Positions 1 to 31,194 of a DNA stretch of 35,600 nt are shown piece after piece (the first letter of the stretch is position 1; every line of letters starts with the position of its first letter). The stretch comes from Chiloscyllium plagiosum (taxonomy: Eukaryota): NCBI RefSeq assembly GCF_004010195.1, contig NC_057746.1, positions 33,192,074 through 33,227,673 of the forward strand, given 5' to 3'. The translations under genes were made by a program, and so were the position numbers. Under the pieces are notes generated by a model. The model saw only the letters and a program-made list of their open reading frames with translations, was not told the origin of the DNA and did not search any database.

Positions 1-1422
1 GGGGTAGTGAGGGTGACGGGGTGGTATTTGTAAGGGGTAGCAAGGTGGAGGTTACCATTATGGGGTAATGAGGTGGAGGTTACCATTATGGGGTAGTGAG
101 GTGGAGGTTACCATTATGGGTTAGCGAGGTGGAGGTTACCATTATGGGTAGCAAGGTGGAGTTTACCATTATGGGGTAGTGAGGTAGAGGTTACCATTAT
201 GGGGTAGCGAGGTAGAGGTTACCATTAGGGGGTAGTGAGGTGGAGGTTACCATTATGGGTTAGCGAGGTGGAGGTTACCATTATGGGGTAGCAAGGTGGA
301 GTTTACCATTATGGGGTAATGAGGTGGATGGTTACCATTATGGGGTAGTGAGGTAGAGGTTACCATTATGGGGTAGCGAGGTAGAGGTTACCATTAGGGG
401 GTAGCGAGTTGGAGGTTACCATTAGGGGGTAGCGAGGTGGAGGTTACCATTATGGGGTAGTGAAGTACAGGTTACCGTTATGGGGTAGTGAGGTCGAGGT
501 AACCATTATGGGGTAACGAGGTAGAGGTTACCATTATAGGTAGCTATGTGGATGTTACCATTATGGGGTAATGAGGTGGATGGTTACCATTATGGGGTAG
601 TGAGGTAGAGGTTACCATTACGGGGTAGTGAGGTAGAGGTTACCATTACGGGGTAGTGAGGTAGAGGTTACCATTATGGGGTAGTGACGTTGAGGTTACC
701 ATTATGGGTTAGTGAGGTGGAGGTTACCATTATGGGTTAGTGAGGTAGAGGTTACCATTATGGGGTAGTGACATTGAGGTTACCATTATGGGTTAGTGAG
801 GTGGAGGTTATGAGGTAGAGGTTACCATTATGGGGTAATGAGGTAGAGGTTACCATTATGGGGTAGTGAGGTAAAGGTTACCATTACGGGTTAGTGAGGT
901 AGAGGTTACCATTATGGGGTAGCAAGGTGGAGGTTACCATTATGGGGTAGTGAGTTAGAGGTTACCATTACCCTTCTGATGGGGCACCGCTGATCCCCCT
1001 ACCCATCGAGGTGTGAAATACTGACCATACCCCCGCTTGACACAAGAGGTTACCATTATGGGGTAGTGAGTTAGAGGTTACCATTATGGGGTAGTGAGTT
1101 AGAGGTTACCATTATGAGGTTATGAGGTAGAGGTTACCATTATGGGGTAGTGAGGTAGAGGTTACCATTATGGGGTAGCGAGGTAGAGTTTACCATTATG
1201 GGGTAGTGAGGTAGAGGTTACCATTACGGGGTAGTGAGGTAGAGGTTACCATTATGGGGTAGTGAGTTAGAGGTTACCATTATGGGGTAGTGAGGTAGAG
1301 ATTACCATTATGGGGTAGCAAGGTGGAGGTTACCATTATGGGGTAGTGAGTTAGAGGTTACCATTATGGGGTAGCGAGGTGGAGGTTACCATTATGGGGT
1401 AGTGAGGTAGAGGTTACCATTA
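1..1422. repeat. 28-bp G-rich minisatellite (consensus GGGGTAGTGAGGTAGAGGTTACCATTAT)
   Basis: Unit read directly with a 28-nt period (TACCATTAT at 81 and 109). Interrupted at ~971-1045 by a non-repeat block that recurs at ~1423-1497. Confidence 0.97.
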
Positions 1423-1525
1423 CCCTTCTGATGGGGCACCGCTGATCCCCCTACCCATCGAGGTGTGAAATACTGACCATACCCCCAGCTTGACACAGTT
1501 TGCATGTCCCATCACGTTGGGGCAT

Positions 1526-1848
1526 TTACCTTATCTGGAACCGTTTCTTTAACGGGCTGGTGAGAGACTCATGTCTGACCTCACACATGTACGTCTGAGT
1601 GCGGTCCACATCCACCAAGGCAATGGTCATCTGACTGACTGTACTGTAGGTGCCACTCACATCCCTCACTACTGGGAAGTTGGTCACACTGCCCGGAACT
1701 TGCAAACCCCTCTCCGTTCTCCAGTTCACGTAGATTCCAGCGGGGTAGAACCCTGATATAAAACACGCCAACGTCACAGTATGTGGCCGCCGGGAGTCAC
1801 TGGTCTGAACCTTGATGGGAGTTACCGTCGGTTGGAGGAAAATAAATT
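1526..1848 (-). CDS. Exon 5, C1-set Ig domain 3 with stop codon (or spliced at 1530)
   Basis: Acceptor TCTCTGCCTGTAACAG|. Motifs: VTLACFISGFYPAGIYVNW, GTYSTVSQM, TYMCEVRHESLTSPLKKRFQIR*. TAA at 1528-1526 overlaps the donor-like AG|GTAAAT. Confidence 0.92.
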
Positions 1849-4800
1849 CTGTTACAGGCAGAGATAAAATATTTCAATCAACAGACATTTTCCCTCAAGG
1901 TCACCACAGCCATTAACTCTACCTGAGCATTTTTACTGACCCACGGGACCTGGTTGTGTTCACAAAAGTACAATCAGCCAGAGACATGTTTCCCTCATTG
2001 AGTGGACAGAACAGGATCGCTCTGGCTGCCTGTCACATACCCAACAGTTACAGGACGTGAGTGTACAAATATCTAGTGGAACATGTAACAGGCGGTCAGT
2101 GCCTGAGAATGAAAGCAGATCAGTGCCTGACTATGCGAGGGATCATGTCACAGGCAGGTAATGCCTGAATATGAGAGGAGTTTTTAACTGGTGGTCAATG
2201 TACAAATATAGGTAATTTTTCTCAATTGTCTGAGATGCAATTCAATCTGATTGTTAGAACCAAATCAGTTGAACTAACAGTAATTTCACACGATCTAAAA
2301 CAGCTCTTGGTTTATATATTTGGTAACTTGAACTTGCTCACACACCATGTCTCTGATACCTGTGTGCCGACCACCTGTTCTCTGTTACCTTGATACCTTT
2401 ACATTTACTCCAAGTTCTATCCTGATATCTGTAAATTTATTATCTGTTCTTCACCAACACCCCCGATACTTATGCATTTACCACCTGTTCTCCATTATCC
2501 TGATACCTGTACGTTTACCGCCTTTTCTACTTTATCCAGATACCTGTACATTTAATGCCTGTTTTCCATTATCCGGATACTTGTATATTTATGGCCTTAT
2601 CATAGAATCCCTACAGTGTGGAAATAGGCCCTTCATCCCAACCAGTCCACACCACCCCTCCAAAGAGTAACCCACCCAGATCCATTCCCCCTACCCTATA
2701 TTTACCCCTGACTAATGCACCTAACCCTAAACACTGGGCAATTTATCATGGCCAATCCACCTAACCTGCACATCTTTGGACCGTGGGAGGAAAGTGGAGC
2801 ACCCGGAGGAACCCATACAGACATGGGGAGAATGGGCAAACTCCACACAGACAGTCGCCTGAGGCTGGAATGGAACCCAGGGTCCCTGGTGCAGTGGTAA
2901 CCACTGAGCCACCGTGACCCCCTGTTGTCCATTTCTTTGATATCTATGTCTATTCTCCTCTCCCTGTGTTTCTATGCACTGATCACCTGTTATCCTTCCA
3001 TCCCCCACCCGATTTGAGGTCGCTGCAGGTGTATTCAGGAATCGAGTTGGAGAAGTATTGATTGAATGGCCTAATTGAGGATGAACATATGGTTGGTTTG
3101 CAATGGACCAGTGAGGGGGTGAATAGAAAAATCACCAAACAGAGCTGCCTTACCCCGGGTTTTATTGATGGTTTGGATGATGCTGTCTGGAACTGAGACA
3201 TGCTGAATCTCACACGAGAAAAGTGCGCCCTGATTCCACATCTGCTCGGATGTGGTCAGCTCACTCTGGGAGGAGTAGGTGCCGTTTATATTGAGAACGG
3301 GCGGGTAGCTCTTGATGTTGTCGACCACCGGATTGCTGTTGATGAACCAGCGGAAAGAGATCTCCGCTGGGTAGAAGCCGGTTGCTAGGCAGACCAGGGT
3401 TGCCGTCTGCTTTGTGATGAGCTCCTGTAAGGTTGGTGACAGGAGATACAGCATCGGCTCCATGGGGTACCGCTCTGTAGAACAATCACAAGCGAGTCAG
3501 TCTCAGAGTAAAGTGGCAAATCAACAAGGCATTCTGGTAAGAAAGGCCAGCCTAGGAGACTCACACTGAAATCCAGTGGCGCCTAGCAACATGAGGTTAC
3601 CATTACCACAGGGCCAGCAGCAATGGGCTACCTGGTATCACCTGATCCTCTGACATTGCACGGTCTCGGTCATGCCATAGTAATGTTCCTACCTCTGAGC
3701 CAGGGCACCCAAGTCCAAGTCCCAACTGCTCCAGGGCTATGTCATAATATTCCTGGACAGGTGGATTAAAAAGTATTGTTGACAGTTTAAATGATTCACC
3801 ACCTTAACATCTCAGTTTTAACCATTTAGGTGCTGTCTTTTAAGGGTATCCATTTGATTATTTTCCCATGACAGTGTCAAGTTGTTCCGGGAATTACTCC
3901 AGTACCTGAGATCCGTTCCCTTTCCCTGGATTGCCCTCTTTGCGAGGAAAGTAGTTTTTGAATGCATTCATGAGATACAACCATTGCTGGTAAGGGTGGC
4001 ATTTATTGTCCTGAGAAGGTGGAGGGGGTAATGAGCTGCCTTCTCAAATTTGTCGCGGTCCTTGGGATATGACGACACACAGTGCTGTTTGGAAGGGAGT
4101 TTCCTGATTTTGACCCAGTGACACTGAAGGAATGGCAATATACTTCCAAGTCTGATTCCAGGACCACTGTATGAAGGGAGACTGGATCTGTTAGGACTTT
4201 ATTTCACTGGAGTTCAGAAGGCTGAGGAGTTATCTCGTTGAAAGTTATAAAATTCCACCAGGACTAGACAGGGTAAATGCAGAAGGATGTTCCTAATGTC
4301 CAGGGGTCTGGACCAATGGGTCACACTTTAAAACTATGAGGCAAACCATTCCGGGCTGAAGTTCGGAGAAATGTCTCCACCCAGAGACTGGGGAGGCTGT
4401 GGAATTCTTTGCCTCCGAAAGCAGGTGAGGTAAAAAAGACTGAATGTTCTCAAGAAGGTTTGTGGCTAAAGAGATTAAAGAGTCAGAGAGTCATGGAGAT
4501 GTGCAGCATTTGTCCAACCCATCCATGCCGACCAGATATTCCAACCCAATGTAGTCCAACCTGCCAGCACCCGGCTCATATCCCTCCAAACCCTTTGTAT
4601 TCATATACCCATCCAGATGCCTTTTAAATGCTGGTCACACTTTAAAACTATGAGGCAAACCATTCCGGGCTGAAGTTCGGAGAAATGTCTCCACCCAGAG
4701 ACTGGGGAGGCTGTGGAATTCTTTGCCTCCGAAAGCAGGTGAGGTAAAAAAGACTGAATGTTCTCAAGAAGGTTTGTGGCTAAAGAGATTAAAGAGTCAG

Positions 4801-7800
4801 AGAGTCATGGAGGTGTGCAGCATTGGTCCAACCCATCCATGCCGACCAGATATTCCAACCCAATGTAATCCAACCTGCCAGCACCCGGCTCATATCCCTC
4901 CAAACCCTTTGTATTCATATACCCATCCAGGTGCCTTTTAAATGCTATAATTGTACCAGCTTCCACCCACTGCCTCTCATAACTCATTCCATACACGCAC
5001 CACCCTCTGTGTAGAAAGGTTGCCCCTTAAGTTTCTTTTATATCTTTCCCCTCTCACCCTAAAACTATGCCCTCTAGTTCTGGACTCCCCCAACCCAGGG
5101 AGAAGACTTTGTCTATTTATCTATCCACACCCTTCATGATTTGATAAACCTTTATGAAGTCACCCTTCAGCCTCCTTGCTCCAGGGAAAACAGGATCAGC
5201 CTATTCAACCTCTGCCGATAGCACAAATCCTCCAACCCTGGCAACATCCAAGCTAGCAGGAACAGGGTATTGAGTGGGATGACCAGCCATGATCATATAA
5301 AATGGCACGGCAGTTCGAAGGGCTTTTTGGAGCTTTTTCCTGCTCCAATGTTTGACTGGCTCGGATGGAAACATGCAGGGAACGCTGTTCCCATGGATTT
5401 GCTGCCCTCGTCCTTCGAGATTAGATTAGATTACTTACAGCGTGGAAACAGGCCCTTTGGCCCAACAAGTCTGCACCCACCCTCCGAAGAGCAACCCACC
5501 CAGACCCATTCCCCTACATTTACCCTTCACCTAACACTACAGGCAATTTAGCATGGTCAATTCACCTCACCCACACATTTTGGACTGTGGGAGGAAACCG
5601 GAGCACCCGGAGGAAACCCACGCAGACACGGGGAGAATGTGCAAACTCCACACAGACAGTTGCCTGAGGTGGGAATTGAACCTGGGTCTCTGGCACTGTG
5701 AGGCAGCAGTGCTAACCACTGTGCCACCGTGCCACCCACAGTGTTCGTGGGTTTGGCATTGATGGTGGAGGGAGTGGATGGGAAGGTGGTGCCAATCGAG
5801 TGGGCTGCTTTGTCCTGACACACTGGCTCTTGACAGGCTGAGTCAATGTTTGCATTGACCTGATACCCAGGTGTGGGATGAGGGATGTGGGAAATTGGAT
5901 TGGGGAGAGAGTGGGTAATAGTGAAGTGTGGGCACTGGTGCTGTTTGGAATGGGCTGCTTGAAGTCAGTGAAATTGGAGTGAGTCGGTGCATCTGGAGAG
6001 AAATACATTTGCTAGAATCAGTAAAAAGCGAGGGACCTACCAGCATTACTTATGTGCTTGGTGATGGGTGAAGGCAGTGCCCCATGGGATACTTGGCAGC
6101 TGATAATCGATCCTTTGACCCACTGGGATGTATCGATCACCAGCTTACTGATGGCAGTGTAAGTGCCGTTGTCTCCTAACAGTGAAGCAGACTGCGAGAT
6201 TCCCCTGTGAACCTGGTCCCCATCGACACGCCAGGAGAAGGAGAGGTCATCTGGATAAAAGTTTTCTCCCACGCAGAGCAGCGAGATGTTCTTTTGGAGA
6301 AAGATATCCTCAGGGTGTGGGTTTTGGAAATAAACCAATGGAGGAGATGCTGAGGGAGCTGAAATGGAAATGAATCTGTTACTTAGCGACTCAACACCGG
6401 CCTGATACTGATATCACCAGATTCACTGTGCCAGGCTCGGACACCTCTGCCATGTTCAAAGGTGGTAAGGCATTAGCCTGGTGGCCTAGGGAACCAAAGT
6501 GCAGCTTGGTATGGCACAGGAGACCTCCTGGGATTGGGAGTGCTGTCACCCGGGCACAGCTGGAAGGATGTAACAGTGAGAGATACTGATTCAGAGTGGG
6601 CACACTCCATTCATTCCTGGGACAAGGAAGTTAGACAATGAGGAAAGGATGGGACAGACGAGGTCTGTAACGTTGGAGTTAGAAGAATGAGCGGCGATCT
6701 TATTGAAGAGTTGGAGGTGAACTGGGAGAGGTGCCTATCCGGAGGAGTAGGGCTGGGGTAAACCAGAACCTGGGAGACACTTGAGGAGAATTTCCTCTCT
6801 TGGCTGGTGCTGACTCTGTGGAGCTCTCTTCCCCAGAGAGTAGCAGAGGCTGGGTCCTTGAATAGATTTGAGGCTGAGTGACTGTAAGATAGATCAGCGT
6901 GTCAGTGATTGGGGGGGGGGTGCAGGGGTGTAGGGAAAGGGATTTGAGGTTCAGATGACAGCTGGATGGGCCATGTTCGTACTGGCAAGTGTAGCAGGCT
7001 CAATGAGTTCGAATAGCCTGCTCCCACTCCCATGTCCTGTGTTTCTCATTGACGCAGTGGCTCAATGTTCCCGGATAATCAGAAGGCAGGGGATTAGCTC
7101 ATAGTTCCAGTCCTGAGCATTGCCCAGTGATCTACCCTAAAAACTGTTTAATGGTGGGTTGGTGAAAATGGCCAGGTCAGATTGGAATATCAGGCCCGTT
7201 TAAATAGGACCAGGAGTTGACATTTCACTAAACCCCTCCTGGGTGTTCTCACCGGTCAGAACACCACCCACCCCCACCACCACCACCATCACCGTGTCAG
7301 CCTGTATCCCCAGGAGTCCAGGAGAGCCAGAAGTGACTAAATTGCAACATACAAGATCTTGAGGGGCCTTGACCAGGGTGGGTGTGGACAGGACGTATCC
7401 TCTTGTGAGAGAATGTAGAACTCGGGGTCAGAGTTAACAATACGGGGGCGCCCATTTAAAACCGAGAGAGGAAAGGATTTGATACAAAATGTTTAAGTAT
7501 CTTTAAGGCAGAGGAGATAAAGATTATCAGGGATTATGCAGGAATGTAGAGCTAAGGTCAAAATCAAATCAGCCAAAGTGTTTGTCTATCGGTCAGGTCA
7601 CGAGCTAACATACCACTGCAGTAAGGGGCTGATTTGGGAACTGCTCTGCAGCTAATGTAGGTAGGTTGAAAGTTTAAAGTGCACTTCCTGAGGGGTGTTC
7701 ACACAAAGTTAGGCTGATTCACCCTCTGAAAGGTATTCTGAAACGTCACTGGGTACAGACATTCAGGACAGCAGGGGGAAGGGTTGTCTTTGTACAGGTG

Positions 7801-10800
7801 CAGAGCCAATTCAATGCAGAGCCAATTCGGTATTCCCTGGCCCTGGGTCTGTTTTGCAGCCAAACAGGAAAATAAAGTGTACTCAGTCAGAGGCCTATGT
7901 GATCAACTCTGAGATCAGCTTGGCATTAAAAAGGTACTTGTTCTCATTGCTCAGTCCTTTGAGTATAGGAGTTGGGAAGTCATGTTGAGGTTGGACAGGA
8001 CATTGGTGAGGCCTCTTCTGGAATACTGTATCCAGTTCTGGGTGTCCAGTTATAGGAAGGGTGTTATTAAGCTGGACAGGGTTCAGAAGAGATTTACCAG
8101 GATGTTGCTGGGTATGGAGGGCTTGAGTTATAAAGAAAGGCTGGATAGGCTGGGAGTTCTTTCACCGGAGCATAGGAGGTTGAGAGGTGACCTGATAGAA
8201 GTTTATAAAGTAATGAGAGGTGAAGATAGAGTTCGTGGTAGTTGTCTTTTCCCTACGATGGGGGATTTCAAGATGAGAGGGTGCATTTTTAAGGTGAGAG
8301 GAGAGAGATTTAAAAAAGACATAGGGACAAATTTTTTTACACAGAGGGTGGTTTGTGTGTGGAATGAACTTCCTGAGGAAGTGGTGGATGCAGAACAGTA
8401 ACAATGTTTAAAAGTGTTTGGATAAGGACATGAATAGGAAAGGTTTGGAGGGATATGGGCCAGGAGCAGGCAGGTGGGACTAGTTTAGTTTGGGATTATG
8501 GTCAGCATGGACTGGTTGGACCGAAGGGTCTGTTTCCATGCTGTATGACTGAATCTGAATATTGGCCAGGCGAACCCTGTCCACAGGTAGGAAGGAGCCT
8601 AAAGGACCAGGCTGCAGCGATGGGATAGACAAGGTTTGAAGGCTGGCACCCTTGACCAGGCAATACCACTTTCCACTCCCAATTTGACACTGCCCCAGTG
8701 GATTATATACTGAGGTTTTGTTAGACAGCAAGGTGTATAGAGAGACCAGGTCAAAAACTGACCTACCGGCTTTTACAGTGAGCGTGACTCCACATCCGCT
8801 CCAGTCTGTGCTGAATGGGAAGTAAGTGTTGGAGCTGCCACAGTAATATCTGGCTGAGTCCTCCTGTTGGAGGCCTTTTATTGTCAGTGAGAACTTCTGG
8901 CTGGTCCAGTCTTTGGAGCCAATGAAGCGATCGCTTACCACGGACGGGTAAAGAGCAATGCTCGATCCTGGCGTCCAGTAAAGAATCCACGAGATCATGA
9001 GATCCCCCGGCTTGGCGGATCCCCAGATGAGGTAATAATTATCCACAGTCCTGGTGGTGAAACAATTCAACGTCACTGTTTCATTTTCCCAACGACTCAG
9101 AGATATGGGCGAAATATAGAGAGTGTCATCAGCTGCCAAAGGACCTGCAAGGCAAAAAAAACCCACACTCATGAGTCAGCTCTCTGTCAATCAGATTTAA
9201 AGTCATTTGCAAGAGTGTGAAAGCTGAATGGTTTGTTTTAATGCATTGAGTTACAGAAGGTGTTGTATTTATACACCGTGTGTTTCACAACCATCAGGTC
9301 TTATCCAAGAACTTGATAGCAATGGGCTTCTGGACTGAGCCATACCCTGTAGAAACTTCTCCTGAACATATCTTAGGAACCCATGGTCCTCTCTCCTTTA
9401 TGCTGTCTACATTTGGATAATTGCATTTCATCTGTCATTTCCTTGCAGATTTCTCTATACCTTTCCCATTGTCGGTCCCCTGTAGAATACACCACGTAAT
9501 GTTACGATGCAGTTATTGTCTCCGAGCTCTAACTAAACAGATTCTGTCCTTGATGTCTCTGGGATAACCCTCTATCCAACACTGTCATGTCCAGACTTAC
9601 CTTCCTTTCTGCTTTCATCCTGTCCCATTTTTCCTGAACTCCTTATACCCAGGAATCTTTAACTCCCAGTCCTGCCTCTCTCTGATTCAGGTCTCCATTG
9701 TTGTCCCACCATCAGATTTCAATGGGTCTAACTGTCCCTGTAACCTGGGGATCTTGTTTATCACACACTATTCATGTGCAGCAAACTGAGTCTGGTGTAT
9801 TCCACTCCCTTTCACTGTGACCTCCATCTTGTACATGATGGAGGTAAAGGTAAAGATACTCCTTTAGTTTTACCTCTACCAAATCTCTGTGTACATTTCA
9901 CCTCTGACATTACCTCCTGATCTGCCCATCACTGTGGTGTTTGTTTAAGCCCTACCTGCGAAGCAAGCTGACCCTACAAGGAGATCGATGCTGCTTCTCT
10001 CAGGAGTGAACTGTCAGGCCTGAGCTGACCCCAACAGCCAATGAACCCAAAATCCTCCCTCCTGCATTTGCTCTCTGCACAGTCTTCCCACTGCTGCACG
10101 CACTGGTACCTTCGCACTGGGGGGTGTCCCACAGATTATTCCTTTTGAACTCCAATTTGTTCCTTTTTCCCCAGCTCCCTGGGCTCTGCCCTCATCCTGC
10201 TTTCTGGGGGGAATTGGGAAAGGTCTAGAGGGACAAATTTGCAAGAAAATGATAGGACTAGAATAAGCAGAGGGAATAATGCACTTGAAGTATCCGAATA
10301 TAGAGACTGGTATAATGCCAGCAGAAAGCTTCCTGAAGTGTATTCGGGAGAGTTTTCTGTAGAGTATGGGCTTCAGTCCACTGTGGACTGAGACTCTGCT
10401 GTGTCTGGTTCTGGTGAACAAGATGAAGATATGGAATGGAATTGCAGAATGGTTCCGGTGGTTACTCGGCCCAGTTTTTCCATGTGGGCCTTCCGCGACA
10501 GGAATGTAGCTTGGCCCATTCCCCCCAGCTTACCCCCAAACTACTGCAATTTTATTTTCTCTTTGGTTAATTGTCCAATTCTCTCTCGAAAGCTGACAGT
10601 ACGACAAATGCCCCAATCGTCCAGGCACCAACTACTGACTCTGAGCTTGAGCGAGGGTCAGAAATGAGATTCTAACCCCGAGCCACATCCGGAAGCAGTG
10701 TAGGGGGAGCTAATATCGTGCTGGAGCTCCTCCTCCCCCTCCCCCCACACTGTCTCTGCTCCCCATTCAGTGAGCCCCATTATGTTTGTTGGTTGGGGGT

Positions 10801-11069
10801 TGGTTAGTGAGGATGTAGAGACAAAACCAGGGGATGACAGATAGGGTCACGTTCCTGTCTGTCTCCCATCGCCATCCAGACCCACGCCAACCTGTGGTGA
10901 GAAGATCGAATTTGACCCATCGTCCCCTTAAGTCTCACGTGCCTTCAAGAGGGCCAAAGAGGAGGGGGAAGGGCGAAGGGAAGGGAGGAGAAAAGTCAAA
11001 GAGGCCGACGACACCCACAGTTGGCAGCCTACCTGCATGGGCAGCGAATAAGAGCAGAAGCGACCACAT
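1526..11069 (-). CDS. UrIg: Non-rearranging antigen-receptor-like IgSF gene, L-V(J)-C1-C1-C1, 458 aa, probably secreted (UrIg-like). Exons: 11069-11033, 9144-8767, 6358-6041, 3474-3154, 1848-1526
   Basis: All four introns are GT-AG and phase 1. Exon lengths 37+378+318+321+323=1377 nt give one open frame ending in TAA. Canonical V-set and C1-set motifs are present. The symbol comes from a recalled architecture match (shark, one non-rearranged V plus three C1, no TM), not from an alignment. Confidence 0.8.
2601..2920 (-). mobile_element. tRNA-derived SINE (shark HE1/V-SINE-like), head partly deleted
   Basis: A box TGGCTCAGTGG, B-box-like GGTTCCATTCC, body GTGTGGAGTTTG.., CR1-like 3' tail. Homologous to three other copies in the window. 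Confidence 0.85.
3154..3474 (-). CDS. Exon 4, C1-set Ig domain 2
   Basis: Acceptor TTGTTCTACAG|, donor CGGG|GTAAGG. Motifs: ATLVCLATGFYPAEISFRW, NGTYSSQSELT, WNQGALFSCEIQH. Confidence 0.95.
4319..4946. repeat. Tandem duplication of 314 bp (4319-4632 / 4633-4946) spanning two oppositely oriented CR1 fragments
   Basis: Near-identical copies. Twin 72-aa ORFs at 4409 and 4723 are offset by exactly 314 nt. Confidence 0.95.
4800..5250 (-). mobile_element. CR1 LINE 3' fragment
   Basis: Translates to VEAGTIIAFKRHLDGYMN (CR1 ORF2 C-terminus) plus 3' UTR. Confidence 0.88.
5420..5737 (-). mobile_element. tRNA-derived SINE (HE1-like)
   Basis: GGTGGCACGGTGGCACAGTGGTTAGCACTGCTGCCTCAC..GGTTCAATTCCC head, (TCTAA)n tail. 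Confidence 0.9.
6041..6358 (-). CDS. Exon 3, C1-set Ig domain 1
   Basis: Acceptor TTTCCATTTCAG|, donor GCTG|GTAGGT. Motifs: SLLCVGENFYPDDLSFSW, NGTYTAISKL, SQW, ISCQVSHGAL. Confidence 0.95.
7940..8552 (+). mobile_element. CR1 LINE 3' fragment
   Basis: LVRPLLEYCIQFW...RRLRGDLIEVYK...FFTQRVVCVWNELPEEVV followed by 3' UTR. Confidence 0.93.
8767..9144 (-). CDS. Exon 2, V-set Ig domain with germline-joined J-like G strand
   Basis: Acceptor TTTTTTTTGCCTTGCAG|, donor GCCG|GTAGGT. Motifs: TVTLNC (B-strand Cys), YLIW (C-strand Trp), DRFIGS, FSLTIKGLQQEDSARYYC, then GSSNTYFPFSTDW-SGCGVTLTV (GxG-xxLTV). Confidence 0.95.
11033..11069 (-). CDS. Exon 1, signal peptide (MWSLLLLFAAHA-G)
   Basis: ATG at 11069, hydrophobic stretch, donor CAG|GTAGGC, phase 1. 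Joins in frame to GPLAA-DDTLY of the V exon to make a ~17-aa leader. Too short for the ORF track. Confidence 0.8.
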
Positions 11070-11099
11070 TCTCTAAGCTCTGTGGCAGAATCTTCGCAA

Positions 11100-11295
11100 A
11101 TGGCAATTACAATTAACCTTGGAGCTTAAGCTGTTCGAGGTGACAGAGAGGCATTTGGTTGCTCGACTGAAAGTAAGAGAGAGGCAACTGCTGAATATTG
11201 ACCTGCCGTGTACCCCTCCCCAGCCTGATCCACTTATTGCAACAGGCTATTGTGCAGGTTAATCGTTCACTCATGAAGTCTGGCGTAAATAACTC
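11100..11295 (-). promoter_or_regulatory. Putative proximal promoter of the IgSF gene with HNF1-like and forkhead-like motifs
   Basis: GGTTAATCGTTCAC at 11257-11270 (HNF1-like), TATTGAC at 11196-11202 and GTAAATA at 11285-11291 (forkhead-like), all in non-repetitive DNA just upstream of the leader ATG. Motif matches only. Confidence 0.35.
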
Positions 11296-22700: not shown

Positions 22701-22761
22701 CTTGGGGGTGCTCACTCAGGAGAGGTGCTCAGTGGGGGCAGGGAAACCCTGAAGCTGGGAG

Positions 22762-23214
22762 ATGGCATCGAAAGAGCAGGCAGAGAGCCTGAGCAAGTAC
22801 CTGCGGTGTGGCCTGTGCCGGGAGCTGTTCCAACAGCCAGTCATCCTGGAGTGCGGCCACAACTTCTGTCGGGGCTGCATCCAGAGCGAGTGGGAGAAGG
22901 TAGAAGGGGGAGGCTGCTGTCCGGAGTGTCTGACTCTGTCCCAAGGCAGTCACCTCAAACTCAACAGGGCCCTAGCTAACCTGGCCGACAGGCTGAGGAA
23001 CCTGAAGCCGGCTCGAGAGCGCACTCCTTGGGCAGAGCCTCCGGGGGGAGAGCCTGGCTTCGGCCTCTATTGCAGTGAGCACCGGGAGGAACTGAAACTG
23101 TTCTGTGAGACTGACCGCCAGCTGATCTGTGTGATGTGCCTGGATGGCAGAGGGGGTCACAGCCACAAGTTCCATGACTTCATGCTCATCCATGAAGCTG
23201 TCATCAAATACAAG
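22762..23214 (+). CDS. TRIM exon: RING and B-box2
   Basis: C3HC4 RING: CGLC..ECGHNFCRGC..CPEC. B-box: CSEHREELKLFCETDRQLICVMC..H..H. Donor AAG|GTAAAG. Confidence 0.95.
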
Positions 23215-26200
23215 GTAAAGGGCAAGTAAAAAACTGGGTTCTCAGTACAGTCAGAGCGAGTCTAACTCGGGCAGATTTCTCACCGAATTGAGAATGCCTT
23301 TCTGAGGGAGAGGGCCATTCAGCATTCGAGAGTGTGGTGCTGGAAAAGCACAGCAGGTTAGGCAGCATATGAGGAGCAGGAGAGTCAGTGTTTCGGGCAT
23401 TAGCGTTTCATTAGGAATGCCATTCAGCATTGCCCACGTTAACTTTAATTGGTGCGTTCAGATTGCCCTCCTGCCCCTAGGCCAGGAGCTCCAGATACAG
23501 CTCCCACCCCTCAGACTTGAAGGTGTTGTCCATCGCACCCGTTCCCGGTGGGTAGGTTATCACTTGTGGCACAGTAGTAGTGTTCGTAACTCTGGACCAG
23601 GAGGCCTGGGTTAAAATCCCACCTGCTCCAAAGGTGTACCATGATGTCCGGGTGGTGGTAAACTTTGTAACTCCCTCTGTCACTTTGCCAGCATTGGGTG
23701 ATGCGCGGGAGAGAGATTCCCAGTGGACTGGGGTGGACAGGATGGGACAAAGCTCATGGCTCTCTTCCCCCTTTGCACAGCCCTATCCAGAACTCCAGTC
23801 CACAAGTGAAAGTGGATGTTACTCTGACCACTGAGAATTGCTAGTAAATTGAACCAGGAGCATGAATAAGCTGCTTGGCCCTTTGAGACTAATCCGCTAT
23901 TCAGCAAGATCATGACTGATCTGATCTTAACCTTAACTCTACACTTCTCCCAACTCTCCCCCCACAATAATCTTTCATCCCTGCAGCCCTGCCTATGATA
24001 TCAGCCTGAATCTCCCCTCCAATCTCCACCCCATACAAATAAACATTTCTCGAAAAAAGGCTGTTTTCACCTTGTTTTGAGAGAAGGCTGAGCAGGGATC
24101 TGATTGAAGTGTAGAAGATTATGCGAAGCATGGACAGGGTGGATAGAAAGCAGCTGCTCCTCTTAGAAGATGGTTCAGTAGCAAATGGCCAAGTTTTAAG
24201 ATGAAAAGTGGGAGATTTAAAGACAATTTGAGGAAAAATATTTTCACCCAGAGAATGGTGGGGCCTGGAATGTGCTGCCGAGGAGACTAGTTTTAGTGAA
24301 AATCCTCACAATCTTTAAAAACTGCTTGGTGTGCAATATAAATGTCGTAACATTCAAGGCTACAGGCCTGCAAGATGGGATTATTGTGAATAGGTTGGTG
24401 CAGATTTGATGGTGTGTTGCTGTGCTTTGTGATTCTATGTCTCTATGATCCTAGGAAAGACTGAAAACATCCCTGGACAACCTGAGACAGAAAATCATCA
24501 TCCTAGAAGCAAAGTTGAAAGAGAAACAGGGCATTTCGGAAATTGGAGTAAGTTCACTTGCACTCTCCTTGCACTCTCCATCTGTCCCCCAACTCCATAA
24601 CCTGCTGTCCCAGCACTACACTCTACCTGCTTTGTTGTGTTGCTCTGTTCCTGCAGGAGAAATCAGCCAGCCTGCAGAACCTTATCTCTTCCGAATTCGC
24701 TAAAATGCACCAGTTCCTGAACAGGAGAGAAGAGAGTTTGATTCGGGAGCTGAAGGACCATGAAGACAACCTTTCAGGAGTGATGGAAAAGAACCTTCAA
24801 GAGATAAAAAATCATTTAGATTCTGTTCAGCGAAAACTGTCGCGATTGCACACGAAAATGGACCAGCGAGCATCAGTCCACTTCTTGGAGGTACCAGGGG
24901 GGTCGTAGGGAGTGGGGAAGTATCTGTAAGGTTTAAAATCCTAACAGCTTCAAAATGCTCAATGAAATTTGGAAACTTTGTGATTTTGTTTGTGTAGTAC
25001 AGAGAAACATGATCTTTGTTTATTGAGTGCACTGCCCGAGAGTGTGGTGGAGACGGCAGCTTCAGGTGAGACATTCAGAAGGGACTGAGGCTGCAAGGGA
25101 AGAATGTGCAGGGTTACGGGGAGAAGGCAGGGGGATGGTACTGAGTGAGAAGCTCATTCAGACAGTGGGCTGAATGGTCTCATTCGATGTGAATATGATT
25201 CAGGAAAAAAATATCAAGTTGCCAAAACAAAATGTGTGAAACAATTCCTCCAATGGATTTTGAGGTTACCTGCCCTCTCAAACATCATTCATCAATGGTT
25301 AATAAATACAATTCTCTCTAAACATCTCCATGACAGCCACAGTTATAACCATAACGTTCTGTGCCAAGCACATTATGTCATCGGTCTGTCTTAGGATGTT
25401 GGCAGGAACACATCTCAGGAACAGGTGGGACTTGAACCCTGGTCTCCCTGTTCAGGGTTATAGATACCAGTTTTGTGCCACAAGAGCCCTCAGTGGCTTT
25501 GTATTTTTCCATAGAATCCATACAATGTGGAAACAGGCCCTTCGGCCCAACACGTCCACAACGACTCTCTGAAGAGTAACCCACCCAGACCCATTCCCTC
25601 CCCTATATTTACACCTGACTAATGCACCTAGCCTACACATCCCTGAACACAATGGGCAATTTAGCATGGCCAATTCACCTAACCTGCACATTTTTGGATT
25701 GTGGGAGGAAACTGGTGCACCCGGAAGTAATCCACACAGACACAGAGAGAAGGTGCAAACCCCACACAGACAGTTGCCCGAAGCTGCAATCGAACCTGGG
25801 TCTTTGGCGCTGTGAGGCAGCAGTGCTAACCACTGAGCCACCGTGTCACCCAAATAACTCTGTGATTGTAATGTCACCCACCTGAACCTCGCTGAGATTG
25901 TGAATAGTGTTGAAGCTAATTTCCCAACTGAAGAGCATGGCCAGGAGAGTGGAACTAAGACTGGAATTGCACTAGCTGCGATTTTCGAAACAGTGGGGTC
26001 ACCTTGAAGGCCTGAATGCTTTTATGTAACAGAGCAGAATAGATAGCAGACTGGTTTTACACCCTGCCCAACATCGCATCATTTAGAGTTCACTGAGTAG
26101 AATGGGAAACAGGCCTTGCGCACTACTGTCTGATTGGTAGGCAAGGTTAAGATTGCTCCCTTAGTGGAGAAGGGATGACCTAGTTGAATGTTAATCCAGA

Positions 26201-29200
26201 GAACTGGTCATGTTCTGAGAACCCATGTTTAAATTCTACTACAGCAGATAAGTGGAATTTGAATTCAATTTTAAAAAATCTGGAATGAAGAGTCTAATAA
26301 TGACCATGGATCCATCACTGATTGTTGGAAAAACCCATCTGGTCCACTAATGTCCTTTCGGGAAAAAAACTGCCATCCTTACCTGGTCTGACTTAAAGGT
26401 GACACCAGACCCACAGCAATGTGGTTGACTCTTAACTGCCCTCTGGGCAATAAATGCTGGCCTAGCCAGCAACACCGTCATCCCATGAATGAATAAAAGT
26501 TTAATAACTATTGCAAAGTTATGTCTATACAGTGGACCGACCAGATGAAGAAATGGCAGTGTTGAGGTGGTTGCTGGAGCTGAAACTAAGACATTTATGT
26601 GCCAGTATCTTATGCATCATGTCAGAGACCCAGAAATGATTGTCCTTGTGTGAGCCCACACTGTCAAGCTCGACCCTGGAAGGATGTTATTCAGGCTAAA
26701 ATAAAGAGGCTGCAAAAGTGGGTTCTTGTGTCAACAGAAGTTCTAAGAACAGTGTCACTTCCTCAGTGAGGTTTTTCTTTGTGCCTTCGAACAGGATAAG
26801 GCCACTGAGCCTCATATCCGCTGGGCCATTCACTTCAAACACGGTTAATTAGTATCTTCACCCTGTTTACTCAACATAGCTCCATGCTGCCTGGTACTCT
26901 CACACAATAACATTTTGTCAACTCATCTTGAAATATCTAATTGGATCCACATCCTGTTGGGAGACAGAATTCCTGATTCCGATATAAGCTATACATGGGA
27001 AGTATTTGTGTCATCAAATTTAATGACGTAATTGCTCTCAGCTATTTTGGGATTCTATTCCATTCTGTCCTAACGTTTCATGAGTACTGTACAATACCCA
27101 GCTCAGATACCTCTTCTGTTTTATATTTAGGAAGAAGCTTGGGGACAAAAGAGGTATGGGAAATTCCTCACAGAAACTTTAAATATCTAGCAAAAATAAA
27201 ACTAATAGTCTTTAAAGTCACTCTGTAATGCAGATTAATACATTTCTATTGTTAGTGAAGACGGTCACCATATATTAATCAGTGGAAATCAGCCACTGGG
27301 ACTGTTCAAAGGACCATTACAGTACACAGTTTGGAGAGAAATGATCAGCACTATCTACCCAGGTAAGGAGATCTTCTTGAGTTTGAGAAGGAAAAAGACT
27401 TCAAACATGAACTATTATTATGTTATACACATTGCTATGCAGAGATCAGATATCGTTGCCTCTTTAATGTTGAACAATTTCCTTAGATATGTTCAATAGA
27501 TTTCTTTTAAACTGTCTCCCTACCTCCACTCATTATAGGAACTGCTGGACACAGCAACTTGTGTTGTAGAACAGAGAGTACATAATTCATTTAAATTTGC
27601 ATCACATATAGGTAGGGTGGTTAAGAAGATATTTAACATGCTTGCCATCACTGCCCTAACCCTAACTCTAACCCTATCACTGTCCTATGAGTATAGGGAT
27701 GGGGACATTATGTTGAGGCTGTACAGGATTTTGGTAAGGCCACTTCTGGAGTACTGTGTCCAATTCTGGTCTCCCAAGTAACAGGAAGGATGTTATTCAG
27801 CTGGAGAGGGTTCAGAAGAGATTTATTGACATGTTACTGGGAATGGAGAGTTTGAGTTATAACGAGAGGCTAGATAGGCTGGGACTTGTTTCAGTGGAGC
27901 ATAGAATGTTGAGAAGTGATCTGATAGAGGTTTATAAAATAATGAGGGATATAGATAAGGTGAATAGCAGTGTCTTTTTCTTAGGGCAGGGGATTTCAAG
28001 ACTAGAGGGCATATTTTTAAGGTTCGAGGAGAAAAATTTAAAGAAGGCATTGGGGCAGTTTTATTTGGACAGGGCGGTTTATATGTGGAATGAACTTCCA
28101 GAGGAAGTGATGGATTTGGGTCCAGTTATAACGTTTAAGAGACATTTAGATAAGTATATGAATAAGAAATGTTTGGAGGGAAATGGGCCAAGTGCAAGCA
28201 GGTGAGTCTGGTTTAGTTTGAGATTATGGTGGGCATGGGCTGGTTGGACCAAAGGGTCTGTTTCTGTGCTGTATGACTATAACTGAGAATCAGTCAATTC
28301 TGTAACAAGCCGTGAGTCCACATGTTGCAAATCTCTGTCTTGTTTTGATGATAATGGAATGACATTGGTGCTCTGTGTTTTTCTAAGCCTCAAGGTTATG
28401 CAATAGTTCATGTTGAATAGAAAGGAAATTTTCTTTTTGCCTTCATTGTAGCAGATACAAGGAGTGCCAGTATTGCAGCTCTTCAATAACGACTTGTTCT
28501 CCCAAACTCAATAACCATTAAAACCGATTAAAAATAAACATTGTTGGCTCGCAGAACGAAATGTGCTTGAGATGCAGCTGTAACCAAAGCAAGTGTCCAT
28601 GAAACACTTTTAGCCCATTCAGTCCCAGTGTAAACATCAATTTGTTGCTCCTTCTAGTTACATAGATGCATTAACAGTTCAGTGCTTGCATCAGTCGAGA
28701 TGATAACATTTGTTCAATGTTTTCTTGTTCTGTCCTCAAAATGGATATTAACGTTGCCCTCTGTTCTCCGAGTGTGAGCTGGGCCTTTCTCCAGTGTTGA
28801 TCTGGGTGGAGAAAATTAATAAACATAACTCCTCCAAAAAACTCATGGGAGAAATCAGTTAATGCTCAGTCAGGTGAAAGACTTGTGGAGGATTAGGAGC
28901 TTGTGTCAGATTCAATATTACTTTCCATTGTGAATGAAATTGGATGTTAAGGAAGAGCAAAAACATATCGGTCGTCATATTCTGCCACGTGCCTGAAACT
29001 TAATTCTGTAGGAGGTAGTGGAATAAAGTATCAGGTGGGGTGCATAATAGACGATGGATTCAATATGATTCCAGAGCTCTTATGGTTTCAGTGGTAGTGT
29101 CCTGTCTCTGAGCCAGGAAGCCTAGTTTCAAATCTCAACAGTATTATTAAAAATATCTGGAATAGGCTTTTAATGTGTCAGCAACCAGTTTTTCACCCTT

Positions 29201-31194
29201 CCTCCCCATTTGTATTTCCCATGAAAGAAAGTAGGACAAATGATAAAATCCCTATCTCTACAGCTTGGTTATAAAGGTTATCTCAGTCTTTAATCAGTGT
29301 TTCCTCTCTTATTGGTGACTCCCAAACAATGAAAATGTTTCGCTGTTAATCAAAATAAAACCTTCCCAAATCAATAACATTCCGTGCTGCATTTCTGAAA
29401 AACATGGAGAAGTAGAAAATAGGAGCAGGAGTAGGCCATTCGGCCCTATGATCATCCAACTCGACAGCCTGGTCCTGCTTCTCCCCCATAACCTTTGATC
29501 CCCGTGTACTTGAAGTAACTCCAAAAAGGCTGGTATCCACTCACCAAGTCACTCTTTATTTACACATGGACAGCCCTTGACACTGATCCAAGTCCCTCAG
29601 AACCAGCTCTCAGAGTGAACAGGATGTCTGACCCTCCTGTTTATATCTGTCAGGCAAGGCTCCCTGATTGTACCAGGTTAACAGCCCCAGTCAGGGAGCT
29701 CATATTCTGTGAGATCCAGCTGTCTGACCTTGTGCAGTCACTAGCAGTGCTATACACATTTCCTACTGGACATCATACAATAATTTGGCCTCACCTTCTT
29801 TCTGCAGTAGCAAATTCCACAGGCTCACCCTTCTCTGGGTGAAGATGTTTCTCCTCACCTGTACTCTGTATCCTCTGTATCCTCTGTATCCTCTGTTTAC
29901 TCTGTATCCTATGAGTGCTGATACTGGATTCCCCTGCCTTTCTTCACTGACCTACTATTGTCTGGGCCAGTTAGAATTTAATAGGTTTAGTTTTTCTGAA
30001 CTCCAGTGAATATAATCCTAACTGAGTTAACCTCTTTTCCAATGTCAGTCCTGCCATCCCAAGAAATTGGTAAACCTTCACTGTTCTCCCTCCATCGCCA
30101 AAACAATTTTCCTCAGATAAGGAAACCAAAACTGCACAGCATATTCCAAGTGTGGTCTCACCAAGACTCTGTACAACTGCAGCAAGACACACTTGCTCCT
30201 GAAAGACATCCCTGCTTTCCTTACAGAATTCCCAGTCTGTGAAGTTACTCTTCGTTCCTCTCTGGGATAATTTCAAGTCTTGGTGATCGGCGAGAGATTT
30301 CATTCAAAGTCTTTTTCTCACAGATTTATTGTGCAGTACAGAAGAGGCTCTTGGTCTATCGACTCAACACCAAGAGAAATCTACCCTAAATCTGCACCCA
30401 CTTTCCGATTCTTGGCCTATAGCCTTGAATATTATGATGTTTCAAGTGCTCATCCAAGTATTTTTGAAAGGTTGTGAGGTTTCTCTCCTCCAGTACTCTC
30501 CCAGTGCATTCAAGACCCCTAGACATCTCTGGGTGAACGTTTTTTAAACTATCAGTGACTGATGGAATTGTGTTGATAGGTAATAGCTGTTCTGTGATTA
30601 GATAATTCAAATGTCATTCTGTTTTTGTCTCTCTGTCTTCCAGCTCCAACCTGTTTGACTTTGGATCCCAATACTGCACATTCCTGGCTCATCCTGTCCG
30701 ATGATCTGACCAGCGTAAGATACGGAGATAGGGGACAGTCTCTCCCTGAGACACCCGAGAGGTTTTATCCCTGTGTGTGTGTACTGGCGTCGGAGGGATT
30801 CAACTCAGGCAAACACTACTGGGAGGTTGAGGTGGGAAACAGCGCTGAGTGGGATCTTGGAGTGGTGACGGAATCCATCAACAGGAAAGGAGATATCACG
30901 GCCATGCCAGAGGCTGGTTACTGGATCGTGTGGCTGAGGAGGAGTGAGTATAAAGCTGGCACATTTCCACGTACCCTCCTGACCGTGGACATCAAGCCCC
31001 GGAAGATCGGGGTCTACCTGAACTACGAGGAGGGGCAGGTGTCATTTTACAATGCAGACAACATGTTCCATCTCCACACCTTCATCGACATCTTCACTGA
31101 GAAACTTTACCCTTTCTTCAGTCCTTGCTTGAGTGGTCATGGGGAGAACACAGAACCACTCAAAATCTGCTCCATGAAAGGTCATTATCGGTGA
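22762..31194 (+). CDS. TRIM E3 ubiquitin ligase, RING-Bbox2-CC-PRY/SPRY (TRIM69/TRIM39/NF7/A33-like), 486 aa. Exons: 22762-23214, 24455-24547, 24657-24890, 27131-27153, 27256-27362, 30644-31194
   Basis: All introns GT-AG with phases 0,0,0,2,1. Exon lengths 453+93+234+23+107+551=1461 nt form an open frame. The exon-size pattern, including the 23-nt micro-exon, is typical of PRY/SPRY TRIMs. Orthology cannot be assigned by eye. Confidence 0.92.
23327..23418 (-). mobile_element. Short Penelope-like pLTR fragment with 13-bp target-site duplication
   Basis: Homologous to 12050-12140. GCCATTCAGCATT at 23314-23326 and 23419-23431. Confidence 0.75.
23565..23655 (+). mobile_element. Short degenerate tRNA-head SINE-like repeat (related copies at ~3670-3775 +, ~25370-25485 -, ~29085-29170 +)
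   Basis: Shared pattern GGCACAGTGGTAGTGTCCCTACCTCTGxxCCAGGAGGCCxGGGTTCAAxTCCCACCTGCTCC. Confidence 0.55.
24455..24547 (+). CDS. TRIM coiled-coil exon (93 nt)
   Basis: CTAG|GAAAGA...GGA|GTAAGT. Encodes ERLKTSLDNLRQKIIILEAKLKEKQGISEIG. Confidence 0.85.
24657..24890 (+). CDS. TRIM coiled-coil exon (234 nt)
   Basis: CTGCAG|GAG...GAG|GTACCA. Encodes ISSEFAKMHQFLNRREESLIRELK...VHFLE. Confidence 0.9.
25509..25851 (-). mobile_element. tRNA-derived SINE (HE1-like)
   Basis: Same head (B box GGTTCGATT), body and tail as the other copies. Confidence 0.9.
26185..26500 (+). mobile_element. Older SINE with LINE-derived tail (possibly Deu-domain/SacSINE1-like)
   Basis: Shares the GGGCAATAAATGCTGGCC..ATCCCATGAATGAATAAA tail with the LINE at 12420-13090. 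Family name from recall only. Confidence 0.5.
27131..27153 (+). CDS. TRIM 23-nt micro-exon
   Basis: TTTTATATTTAG|GAAGAAGCTTGGGGACAAAAGAG|GTATGG. Needed to keep the frame into the next exon. Confidence 0.8.
27256..27362 (+). CDS. TRIM linker exon
   Basis: Encodes ...PLGLFKGPLQYTVWREMISTIYP, a TRIM69/TRIM62-type linker motif. Donor CCAG|GTAAGG. Acceptor chosen because the alternative AG at 27233 gives a stop. Confidence 0.85.
27560..28280 (+). mobile_element. CR1 LINE 3' fragment
   Basis: LERVQKRF...LRSDLIEVYKIM...WNELPEEV...FKRHLDKYMN plus 3' UTR. Confidence 0.92.
29511..29746 (-). mobile_element. Solo LTR (236 bp) inserted in a degenerate minus-strand CR1 (~29400-30200)
   Basis: TG...CA ends. 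Flanks GTACT (29506-29510) / GTGCT (29747-29751). On the minus strand CAATCA, TATAAA (29645-29640) and AATAAA (29560-29555) occur in LTR order. Confidence 0.75.
30644..31194 (+). CDS. TRIM PRY/SPRY (B30.2) terminal exon
   Basis: Acceptor TCTCTGTCTTCCAG|. Motifs: LTLDPNTAH, GKHYWEVEV, WDLGV, KIGVYLNYEEGQVSFYNA, LYPFFSP. Confidence 0.97.

What the first reader, a model, noticed from the sequence alone, without database searches (positions are those of the whole stretch)
8767..8850. The only unpaired cysteine sits inside the J-like diglycine bulge (W-S-G-C-G-V-T-L-T-V)
Seen: the mature protein has 9 Cys, namely two canonical per domain plus one at the x of the GxG motif. The conserved F/W before GxG is Ser, with a Trp one residue earlier. 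There is no hinge exon, no extra Cys in the first C1 domain for a light chain, and no tailpiece Cys. Inference: any covalent dimer or partner link must go through the V domain, unlike IgG, IgM or IgNAR where chains are tied through hinge or C domains. This would lock two V domains together.
Basis: partly seen in the sequence, partly recalled or inferred. Interest (0 to 1): 0.7.

Follow-up and report, generated by a model that had tools for sequence, protein, structure and literature searches.

The report
Cysteine staple of shark UrIg dimer
This is the known shark protein UrIg, an antibody-like protein whose gene does not rearrange; its one spare cysteine sits at the position that staples two chains together in the crystal structure of its sister protein UrIg2, so it likely does the same here, which is largely already published.

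Summary
The gene is shark UrIg (V 96% identical to whale shark UrIg; on the MHC-bearing contig). V-C1-C2-C3 has 9 Cys, one spare, at 8792-8794, invariant in 4 of 4 orthologues. A sixth exon does exist outside the window but adds only Ser-stop.

Mostly known: Kondo 2023 notes the single extra Cys; Flajnik 2025 calls UrIg a disulfide-linked homodimer, and its UrIg2 crystal shows Cys114-Cys114' joining the V domains; our Cys aligns with Cys114. So the V-V staple is very likely (0.88), though not shown directly for UrIg in what I could read.

Correction: the Cys is probably not in a bulge. UrIg2 lacks it, and my UrIg model has an unbroken G strand while a light-chain control breaks at GxG.

Extra: two head-to-head, membrane-type paralogues on contig C14 carry the same Cys; not found in my paper searches. 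The scan noted a similar relative earlier on other DNA (e1-10131656).

The parts
8792..8794 (-). TGT codon of the single non-canonical Cys (residue 113 of the V domain; aligns with UrIg2 Cys114)
   Evidence: invariant in alignment A4, 16 of 16 rows; fig. S2/S3 of PMC12227049
8774..8803 (-). G strand of the V domain, W-S-G-C-G-V-T-L-T-V; predicted unbroken beta strand (no bulge)
   Evidence: sequence; AF2 strand 111-120 continuous versus break at G-K-G in the control
8767..9144 (-). Single-exon VJ domain of UrIg, with the last residues of the split leader
   Evidence: Pfam V-set 4.3e-10; AG/GT borders; 96% to P0001; single copy in the genome search
11033..11069 (-). Leader exon (12 codons plus one base, phase 1), no Cys
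   Evidence: matches the N-termini of P0001 and P0002; not checked against reads
6041..6358 (-). C1-set domain exon 1, two canonical Cys only
   Evidence: Pfam C1-set 8.6e-17
3154..3474 (-). C1-set domain exon 2, two canonical Cys only
   Evidence: Pfam C1-set 2.4e-20; an X5 contig joins it to the next exon (loose end at 1849)
1530..1848 (-). C1-set domain exon 3; spliced at a phase-2 donor at 1530 to a sixth exon outside the window (L006:5044 downward, G000:C37 about 33,187,117) that adds one base and a TGA stop
   Evidence: Pfam C1-set 1.1e-15; contigs of 4 of 4 runs cover 1530-1849 and run on; exon 6 located

Best explanation
The cysteine at 8792-8794 is the only spare cysteine of shark UrIg, aligns with Cys114 of UrIg2, and likely bonds to the same cysteine of a second UrIg chain, stapling the two V domains of a secreted homodimer edge to edge through their A and G strands. 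Shown here: gene identity, Cys count, conservation, no Cys from any further exon. [quoted passage not shown] Inferred: UrIg keeps only the second of these two bonds (Ser stands at the Cys112 position) and has no C1-C1 bond, so this one bond is its whole covalent link. Also inferred: the Trp one residue earlier is what a bulge-less strand needs to keep the aromatic on the outer face (W-to-L spacing 7 without a bulge, 6 with one), which puts the Cys on the core side of the edge strand, where UrIg2's 114-114 bond packs against Trp36 and the canonical disulfide. The result would be a rod-shaped V2-C2-Fc-like dimer closed at the tip instead of at a hinge, with no light chain.
For: 9 Cys, one spare. 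STDWSGCGVTL invariant in 4 of 4 orthologues whose V domains are 72-96% identical. Cys present in 13 of 13 family proteins at E<=1e-20 and 13 of 13 single-stretch hits among the 150 listed by the representative search; 0 of 45 control motifs. Terminal exon gives Ser-stop. [quoted passage not shown] S2-S4 text. Profile alignment puts 9DMX T-D-F-C-S-C-G on the family's t-d-w-c-G-C-g without a gap. AF2 model: G strand unbroken, control broken at GxG; Foldseek ranks 9DMX second with the lowest rmsd listed, 1.6 A over 111 columns. The residue after Trp36 is Gly in 16 of 16 family rows, where Fv-pairing domains have a large interface residue (recalled).
Against: No structure or Cys mutant of UrIg itself was seen; the primary UrIg paper (Flajnik 2023) was not held, so the homodimer claim is second-hand via PMC12227049. 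UrIg and UrIg2 V domains are only about 32-36% identical, and UrIg lacks both Cys112 and the C1-C1 bond, so the geometry may differ. The profile used for the family searches contained the Cys, which favours hits that carry it. DSSP continuity in a 16-sequence AF2 model is indirect evidence for the lack of a bulge, with one control only.
Confidence: 0.88

Rival explanations
1. The Cys links UrIg, in part or mainly, to a different partner in vivo: a UrIg-family paralogue (UrIg2 or one of the two C14 genes, which carry the same Cys) or an extracellular-matrix or serum protein.
For: All four family branches carry the Cys at the same position; UrIg and UrIg2 are both expressed in liver and the authors leave open whether they act as a team; UrIg is found in the matrix (PMC12227049 section 16).
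Against: [quoted passage not shown] The V domains of the branches are only 35-43% identical to UrIg.
Confidence: 0.07
2. The G strand keeps an ordinary diglycine bulge and the V domains pair Fv-style; the Cys is exposed at the position used in engineered disulfide-stabilised Fv and is free or capped, or bonds only between separate dimers.
For: UrIg orthologues keep both glycines (4 of 4); overall fold matches VH domains (Z 17.5-18.4, rmsd 1.4-2.2 A over 111-119 residues). Engineered vH44-vL100 bonds show this region tolerates Cys (PMC6640685 passages; that vL100 is the x of FGxG is recalled Kabat numbering).
Against: In Fv geometry that position pairs with residue 44 of the partner, where UrIg has no Cys, so it would not explain the reported covalent homodimer. 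UrIg2 has no bulge and a non-Fv interface. The glycines vary across the family (S-C-G, G-C-A, A-C-G) while the Cys does not. The model shows no break.
Confidence: 0.04
3. Other cysteines, from an alternative exon (hinge, tailpiece or membrane form), make the interchain bond.
For: The C3 exon has a working donor, so other downstream exons could exist; batoid UrIg2 has hinge exons. Only the C3 exon end was checked against reads.
Against: The loose ends shown (runs X1 and X5) go to Ser-stop; cDNA-based P0002 has the same 9 Cys and no hinge; 0 hinge candidates; Kondo 2023 reports 6 exons, the number found here.
Confidence: 0.01

Closest known systems
UrIg / tsIgH of elasmobranchs (Flajnik 2023, not read; Kondo 2023, PMC10331284; described in PMC12227049 and PMC10751288)
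   Same: This is the orthologue: single-exon VJ plus three C1 domains, six exons, secreted, MHC-bearing contig, 88.7% identical to whale shark P0001 over 444 aligned residues. Kondo's abstract already reports the one extra Cys.
   Different: Kondo places the Cys in a 'linker/hinge between VH and CH1'; it is in fact inside the V exon, in the G strand, 7 residues before the end of the domain.
UrIg2 (PMC12227049; PDB 9DMX)
   Same: Same Cys position (Cys114) with a solved V-V interchain disulfide; bulge-less G strand; same clade of V domains (100/100).
   Different: UrIg2 has a second G-strand Cys (112), in nurse shark a C1-C1 bond (182), up to nine or more C domains and a transmembrane segment; V identity to this gene only 36%.
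Rearranging Ig/TCR J segment (F/W-G-x-G beta bulge) and disulfide-stabilised Fv (vH44-vL100, PMC6640685)
   Same: G-x-G followed by x-x-L-x-V; V-set fold closest to VH.
   Different: No F/W directly before GxG, no predicted bulge, no RSS; the bond would be a symmetric Cys-Cys' at the A/G edge, not a framework-2 to framework-4 bond across an Fv interface.
IgG, IgM, IgNAR heavy-chain dimers (established knowledge, recalled)
   Same: Covalent dimer of V plus C1-set domains with an Fc-like C-terminal pair.
   Different: Tied through hinge or C domains; UrIg has no hinge, no light-chain Cys, no tailpiece Cys.

Membership tests
UrIg | VJ domain in one exon, no RSS | tested here: met
   One 378-base exon; no heptamer-nonamer site in 6401-11100 (consensus motifs recalled)
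UrIg | Three C1-set domains, one exon each | tested here: met
   Pfam C1-set in 3 of 3 exons
UrIg | Secreted only, no transmembrane segment | tested here: met
   Spliced C-terminus is Ser-stop in the 2 runs whose loose ends were shown; orthologues P0001-P0003 end the same way
UrIg | Split leader | tested here: met
   Phase-1 leader exon 11069-11033 matching orthologue N-termini; not checked with reads
UrIg | V domain highly conserved across elasmobranchs; clusters with UrIg, not UrIg2 | tested here: met
   72-96% identity; tree group of 5 UrIg rows, support 82/92, UrIg2 rows apart at 100/99
UrIg | Linked to the MHC | tested here: met
   24 of 37 MHC class I matches lie on the same contig C37; the nearest is about 16 Mb away
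UrIg | Position in the class III region | not tested
   No class III marker was searched
UrIg | Liver expression | not tested
   Runs laid carry no tissue label
UrIg | Disulfide-linked homodimer | not testable with these tools
   Needs gels or a structure; literature statement in PMC12227049
UrIg2 | C-x-C in the G strand | tested here: not met
   S-G-C here; C-x-C in L002 and P0006, P0007, P0009, P0011
UrIg2 | Repeated C2-C3 units and a transmembrane segment | tested here: not met
   Three C exons then stop; a separate UrIg2 V lies on contig C77634
Canonical J-segment diglycine bulge | F/W directly before G-x-G | tested here: not met
   Ser, with Trp one earlier, in 5 of 5 UrIg rows
Canonical J-segment diglycine bulge | Beta bulge breaking strand G | tested here: not met
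   Prediction only: strand 111-120 unbroken, control broken at 102-104; agrees with the UrIg2 crystal

The most novel reading that the evidence does not exclude
The G-strand cysteine marks a four-branch family of non-rearranging VJ-C1 receptors in sharks: UrIg, UrIg2 and two apparently undescribed membrane genes that sit head to head on contig C14 (V-C-C-C-TM and V-C-C-TM). The tip staple through the A/G edge would be the old way these V domains paired, and the C14 pair could form a disulfide-linked two-chain receptor, a non-rearranging counterpart of heavy/light or TCR pairing. The bulged F/W-G-x-G strand of Ig and TCR would then be the change that moved pairing to the Fv face.
Probability: 0.25. 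Interest if true: 0.7.

Novelty: already known. Interest (0 to 1): 0.27.

Why it matters
UrIg-family V exons are the leading candidates for the gene that the RAG transposon invaded (PMC12227049). How their V domains pair bears on how Fv pairing arose. For UrIg itself the finding confirms and tidies published work: it places Kondo's 'linker' Cys in strand G, ties it to UrIg2 Cys114, and gives a one-residue test of the whole covalent dimer. The two further paralogues are the part that could add something new.

Tried and rejected
Complex prediction of two copies of P0001 residues 18-245, without alignment: no verdict (scores 0.03 and 0.09, mark 0.32); not used as evidence either way. Flajnik 2023 (J Immunol) was not held under DOI, PMC id or PubMed id, so I cannot say whether it already names this Cys as the dimer bond; its supplements may bear on this too. 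VIA-align's top 50 rows were all antibody V domains and did not list 9DMX; not informative. No listed sequencing run is on record as RNA; the splice evidence rests on contigs that cover the exon exactly and run on. Only the C3 exon was laid; leader, V, C1 and C2 joints were not checked with reads apart from one C2-C3 loose end. Pfam scan of 72 of 144 long ORFs flanking the C14 pair gave only retroelement-type domains and one P450 exon, so their synteny is unresolved. Rejected: that the genomic TAA at 1526 is the real stop; that P0004 is a real TRIM-UrIg fusion (likely a merged gene model, not tested); that the gene is UrIg2 or a germline-joined IgH/IgL. One control exon (L031) had no V motif and was left out of the tree. 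Sequence look-ups in earlier scan notes with the two C14 V exons found nothing.

Full report
Observation. The finding lies at the 3' end of a V-set exon on the minus strand (Pfam V-set). Rebuilding the gene gave exons V 9144-8767, C1 6358-6041, C2 3474-3154 and C3 from 1848, all with AG/GT borders, and 9 cysteines: two canonical per domain and TGT at 8794-8792 in W-S-G-C-G-V-T-L-T-V. A phase-1 leader exon at 11069-11033 has no Cys. No Cys-bearing hinge-exon candidate was found in the 3 introns scanned and no RSS-like site in 6401-11100.

The downstream exon. One exists. Orthologues P0001-P0003 end F-Q-I-S whereas genomic read-through gives F-Q-I-R. Contigs of 4 of 4 runs laid (guessed RNA, four studies) cover 1530-1849 exactly and run on; loose ends were shown for X1 and X5. 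They map to an exon about 4.96 kb beyond the window start, behind a pyrimidine tract and AG, that adds one base and TGA. So the gene has six exons, as Kondo et al. report, and no further Cys.

Identity. The V domain is 96% identical to whale shark P0001, whose V reads the same as the nurse shark UrIg V printed in fig. S2 of PMC12227049 (compared by eye). The four domains are 88.7%, 73.8%, 61.5% and 59.7% identical to P0001-P0004. The genome search found one copy (150 of 339 candidates scored). 24 of 37 MHC class I matches lie on the same contig, the nearest about 16 Mb away. This is UrIg.

Conservation and chance. STDWSGCGVTL is invariant in 4 of 4 orthologues. A family profile found 13 proteins at E<=1e-20 and all 13 carry the Cys; the 13 single-stretch hits among the 150 listed by the representative search carry it too. 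The flanking glycines vary (S-C-G, G-C-A, A-C-G); the Cys does not. Controls: x is Cys in 0 of 45 GxG-type motifs from 19 of 138 other proteins, and in 0 of 5 GxG motifs among 21 other V exons from this genome, of which 15 had no GxG and 1 no V motif. The profile held the Cys, so the family counts lean towards it.

What is in print. Kondo 2023 (PMC10331284; abstract passage and Results section read) states that the protein has only one Cys beyond the domain pairs, placing it in a VH-CH1 linker. [quoted passage not shown] Its fig. S2 and my profile alignment to 9DMX put our Cys on Cys114. Verissimo 2023 (PMC10751288; passages) places UrIg in class III. Flajnik 2023, the primary UrIg paper, was not held; it may already assign this bond. 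A search for UrIg with disulfide, G strand and elasmobranch returned only PMC12227049.

Structure. An AF2 model of the window's V domain (16 sequences, no templates, pLDDT 87) has strand G unbroken over residues 111-120, across G112-C113-G114. A control light-chain VJ exon from the same genome, folded the same way, breaks at G102-K103-G104. Foldseek ranks 9DMX second, with the lowest rmsd listed (1.6 A, 111 columns, TM 0.82). So 'inside the bulge' is likely wrong structurally. Inference from strand alternation: without a bulge, a Trp seven residues before the core Leu faces outward as the canonical Trp does at six with a bulge, and Ser111 and Cys113 fall on the core side of the edge strand, matching what fig. 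S4 describes for Cys114. In an Fv the equivalent position pairs with residue 44 of the partner (vH44-vL100, PMC6640685 passages; numbering recalled), where UrIg has no Cys, so Fv-type pairing would not give the reported covalent dimer.

Mechanism. Most likely (0.88) a symmetric Cys113-Cys113' bond closes the tip of a secreted V-C1-C2-C3 homodimer. Shown: sequence, conservation, lack of other Cys. Published: covalent homodimer; the homologous bond in UrIg2. Inferred: that UrIg uses the same geometry with one bond instead of three. What the dimer binds is unknown; the authors suggest an innate role in the matrix. Rivals are a mixed bond to a paralogue or matrix protein (0.07), an Fv-type domain with a free Cys (0.04), and other exons (0.01).

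Further paralogues. The genome search also returned a UrIg2 V (L002) and two unsplit VJ exons about 10 kb apart and facing away from each other on contig C14. Gene A has V, three C exons and a hydrophobic exon; gene B has V, two C exons and a hydrophobic exon; their last C exons are 306 of 312 bases identical; two assembly gaps lie between them. Both have W-C-G-C. Database models in other sharks match them (P0005, P0008, P0010, P0012, P0013, labelled hypothetical, uncharacterized or kappa-like). All 17 family rows form one clade (100/100) against 20 other V exons, midpoint-rooted, with the C14 genes grouped at 94/86 and joined to UrIg2 at 96/88; P0013 is partial and its place is unsure. I did not find them in paper searches or among the 8 'UrIg' entries of table S1, but papers outside the library could describe them under other names. 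An earlier unreviewed scan note (e1-10131656) reports a similar third membrane relative on other DNA of this genome; I met the genes before reading it and could not confirm that it is the same locus.

Verdict. Observation confirmed, interpretation supported with one structural correction, and largely already known: interest 0.27. The boldest reading left open, a four-branch family with an ancestral tip staple and a possible heterodimeric C14 pair, has probability about 0.25 and would merit 0.7.

Noticed in passing
G000:C14:79,726,000-79,739,130 (L011, L012, L004; minus strand): UrIg-family gene A: unsplit VJ exon with W-C-G-C-A, three C1-type exons and a predicted transmembrane exon; extra Cys in its first two C exons; matches model P0005.
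   Followed up: partly
G000:C14:79,748,500-79,757,250 (L013, L014, L003; plus strand): UrIg-family gene B, head to head with gene A: unsplit VJ exon with W-C-G-C-G, two C1-type exons and a predicted transmembrane exon; orthologue models P0008, P0010, P0012 are labelled kappa-like or uncharacterized.
   Followed up: partly
L011:6700-7011 and L014:3656-3967: The last C exons of genes A and B are 306 of 312 bases identical while their V exons are about 41% identical as protein: recent gene conversion, as reported for UrIg2 C domains.
   Followed up: partly
L002 (G000:C77634:2867-3232, minus strand): UrIg2 V exon on a small 3.5 kb contig, with F-C-G-C-G.
   Followed up: partly
window 1530 and L006:5044: UrIg ends with a sixth exon that codes one base plus the stop, behind an intron of about 6.5 kb; the donor sits where Ig heavy chains splice to membrane exons, so it may be the remnant of a lost transmembrane exon (inference).
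   Followed up: partly
window 22753-31194 (plus strand): TRIM gene (RING, B-box, PRY-SPRY) facing away from UrIg; the stingray model P0004 fuses a TRIM N-terminus to UrIg, likely a merged annotation of neighbours.
   Followed up: partly
window 1-1440: Long tandem repeat of a unit of about 30 bases in the last UrIg intron.
   Followed up: no
window V exon, residues 36-39 of the domain (about 9014-9025): Gly follows the conserved Trp36 in 16 of 16 family rows, replacing the usual Fv interface residue; a second family hallmark beside the G-strand Cys.
   Followed up: partly
L009:762-1163 and L018:817-1188: Neighbours of the C14 pair: an exon that looks like a matrin-type zinc finger (recalled resemblance, no Pfam hit) and a cytochrome P450 exon.
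   Followed up: no
L034-L036 (G000:C9, 3.2-3.9 Mb): Another set of single-exon VJ domains with Y-G-R-G and a very short CDR3-equivalent loop, outside the UrIg clade.
   Followed up: no
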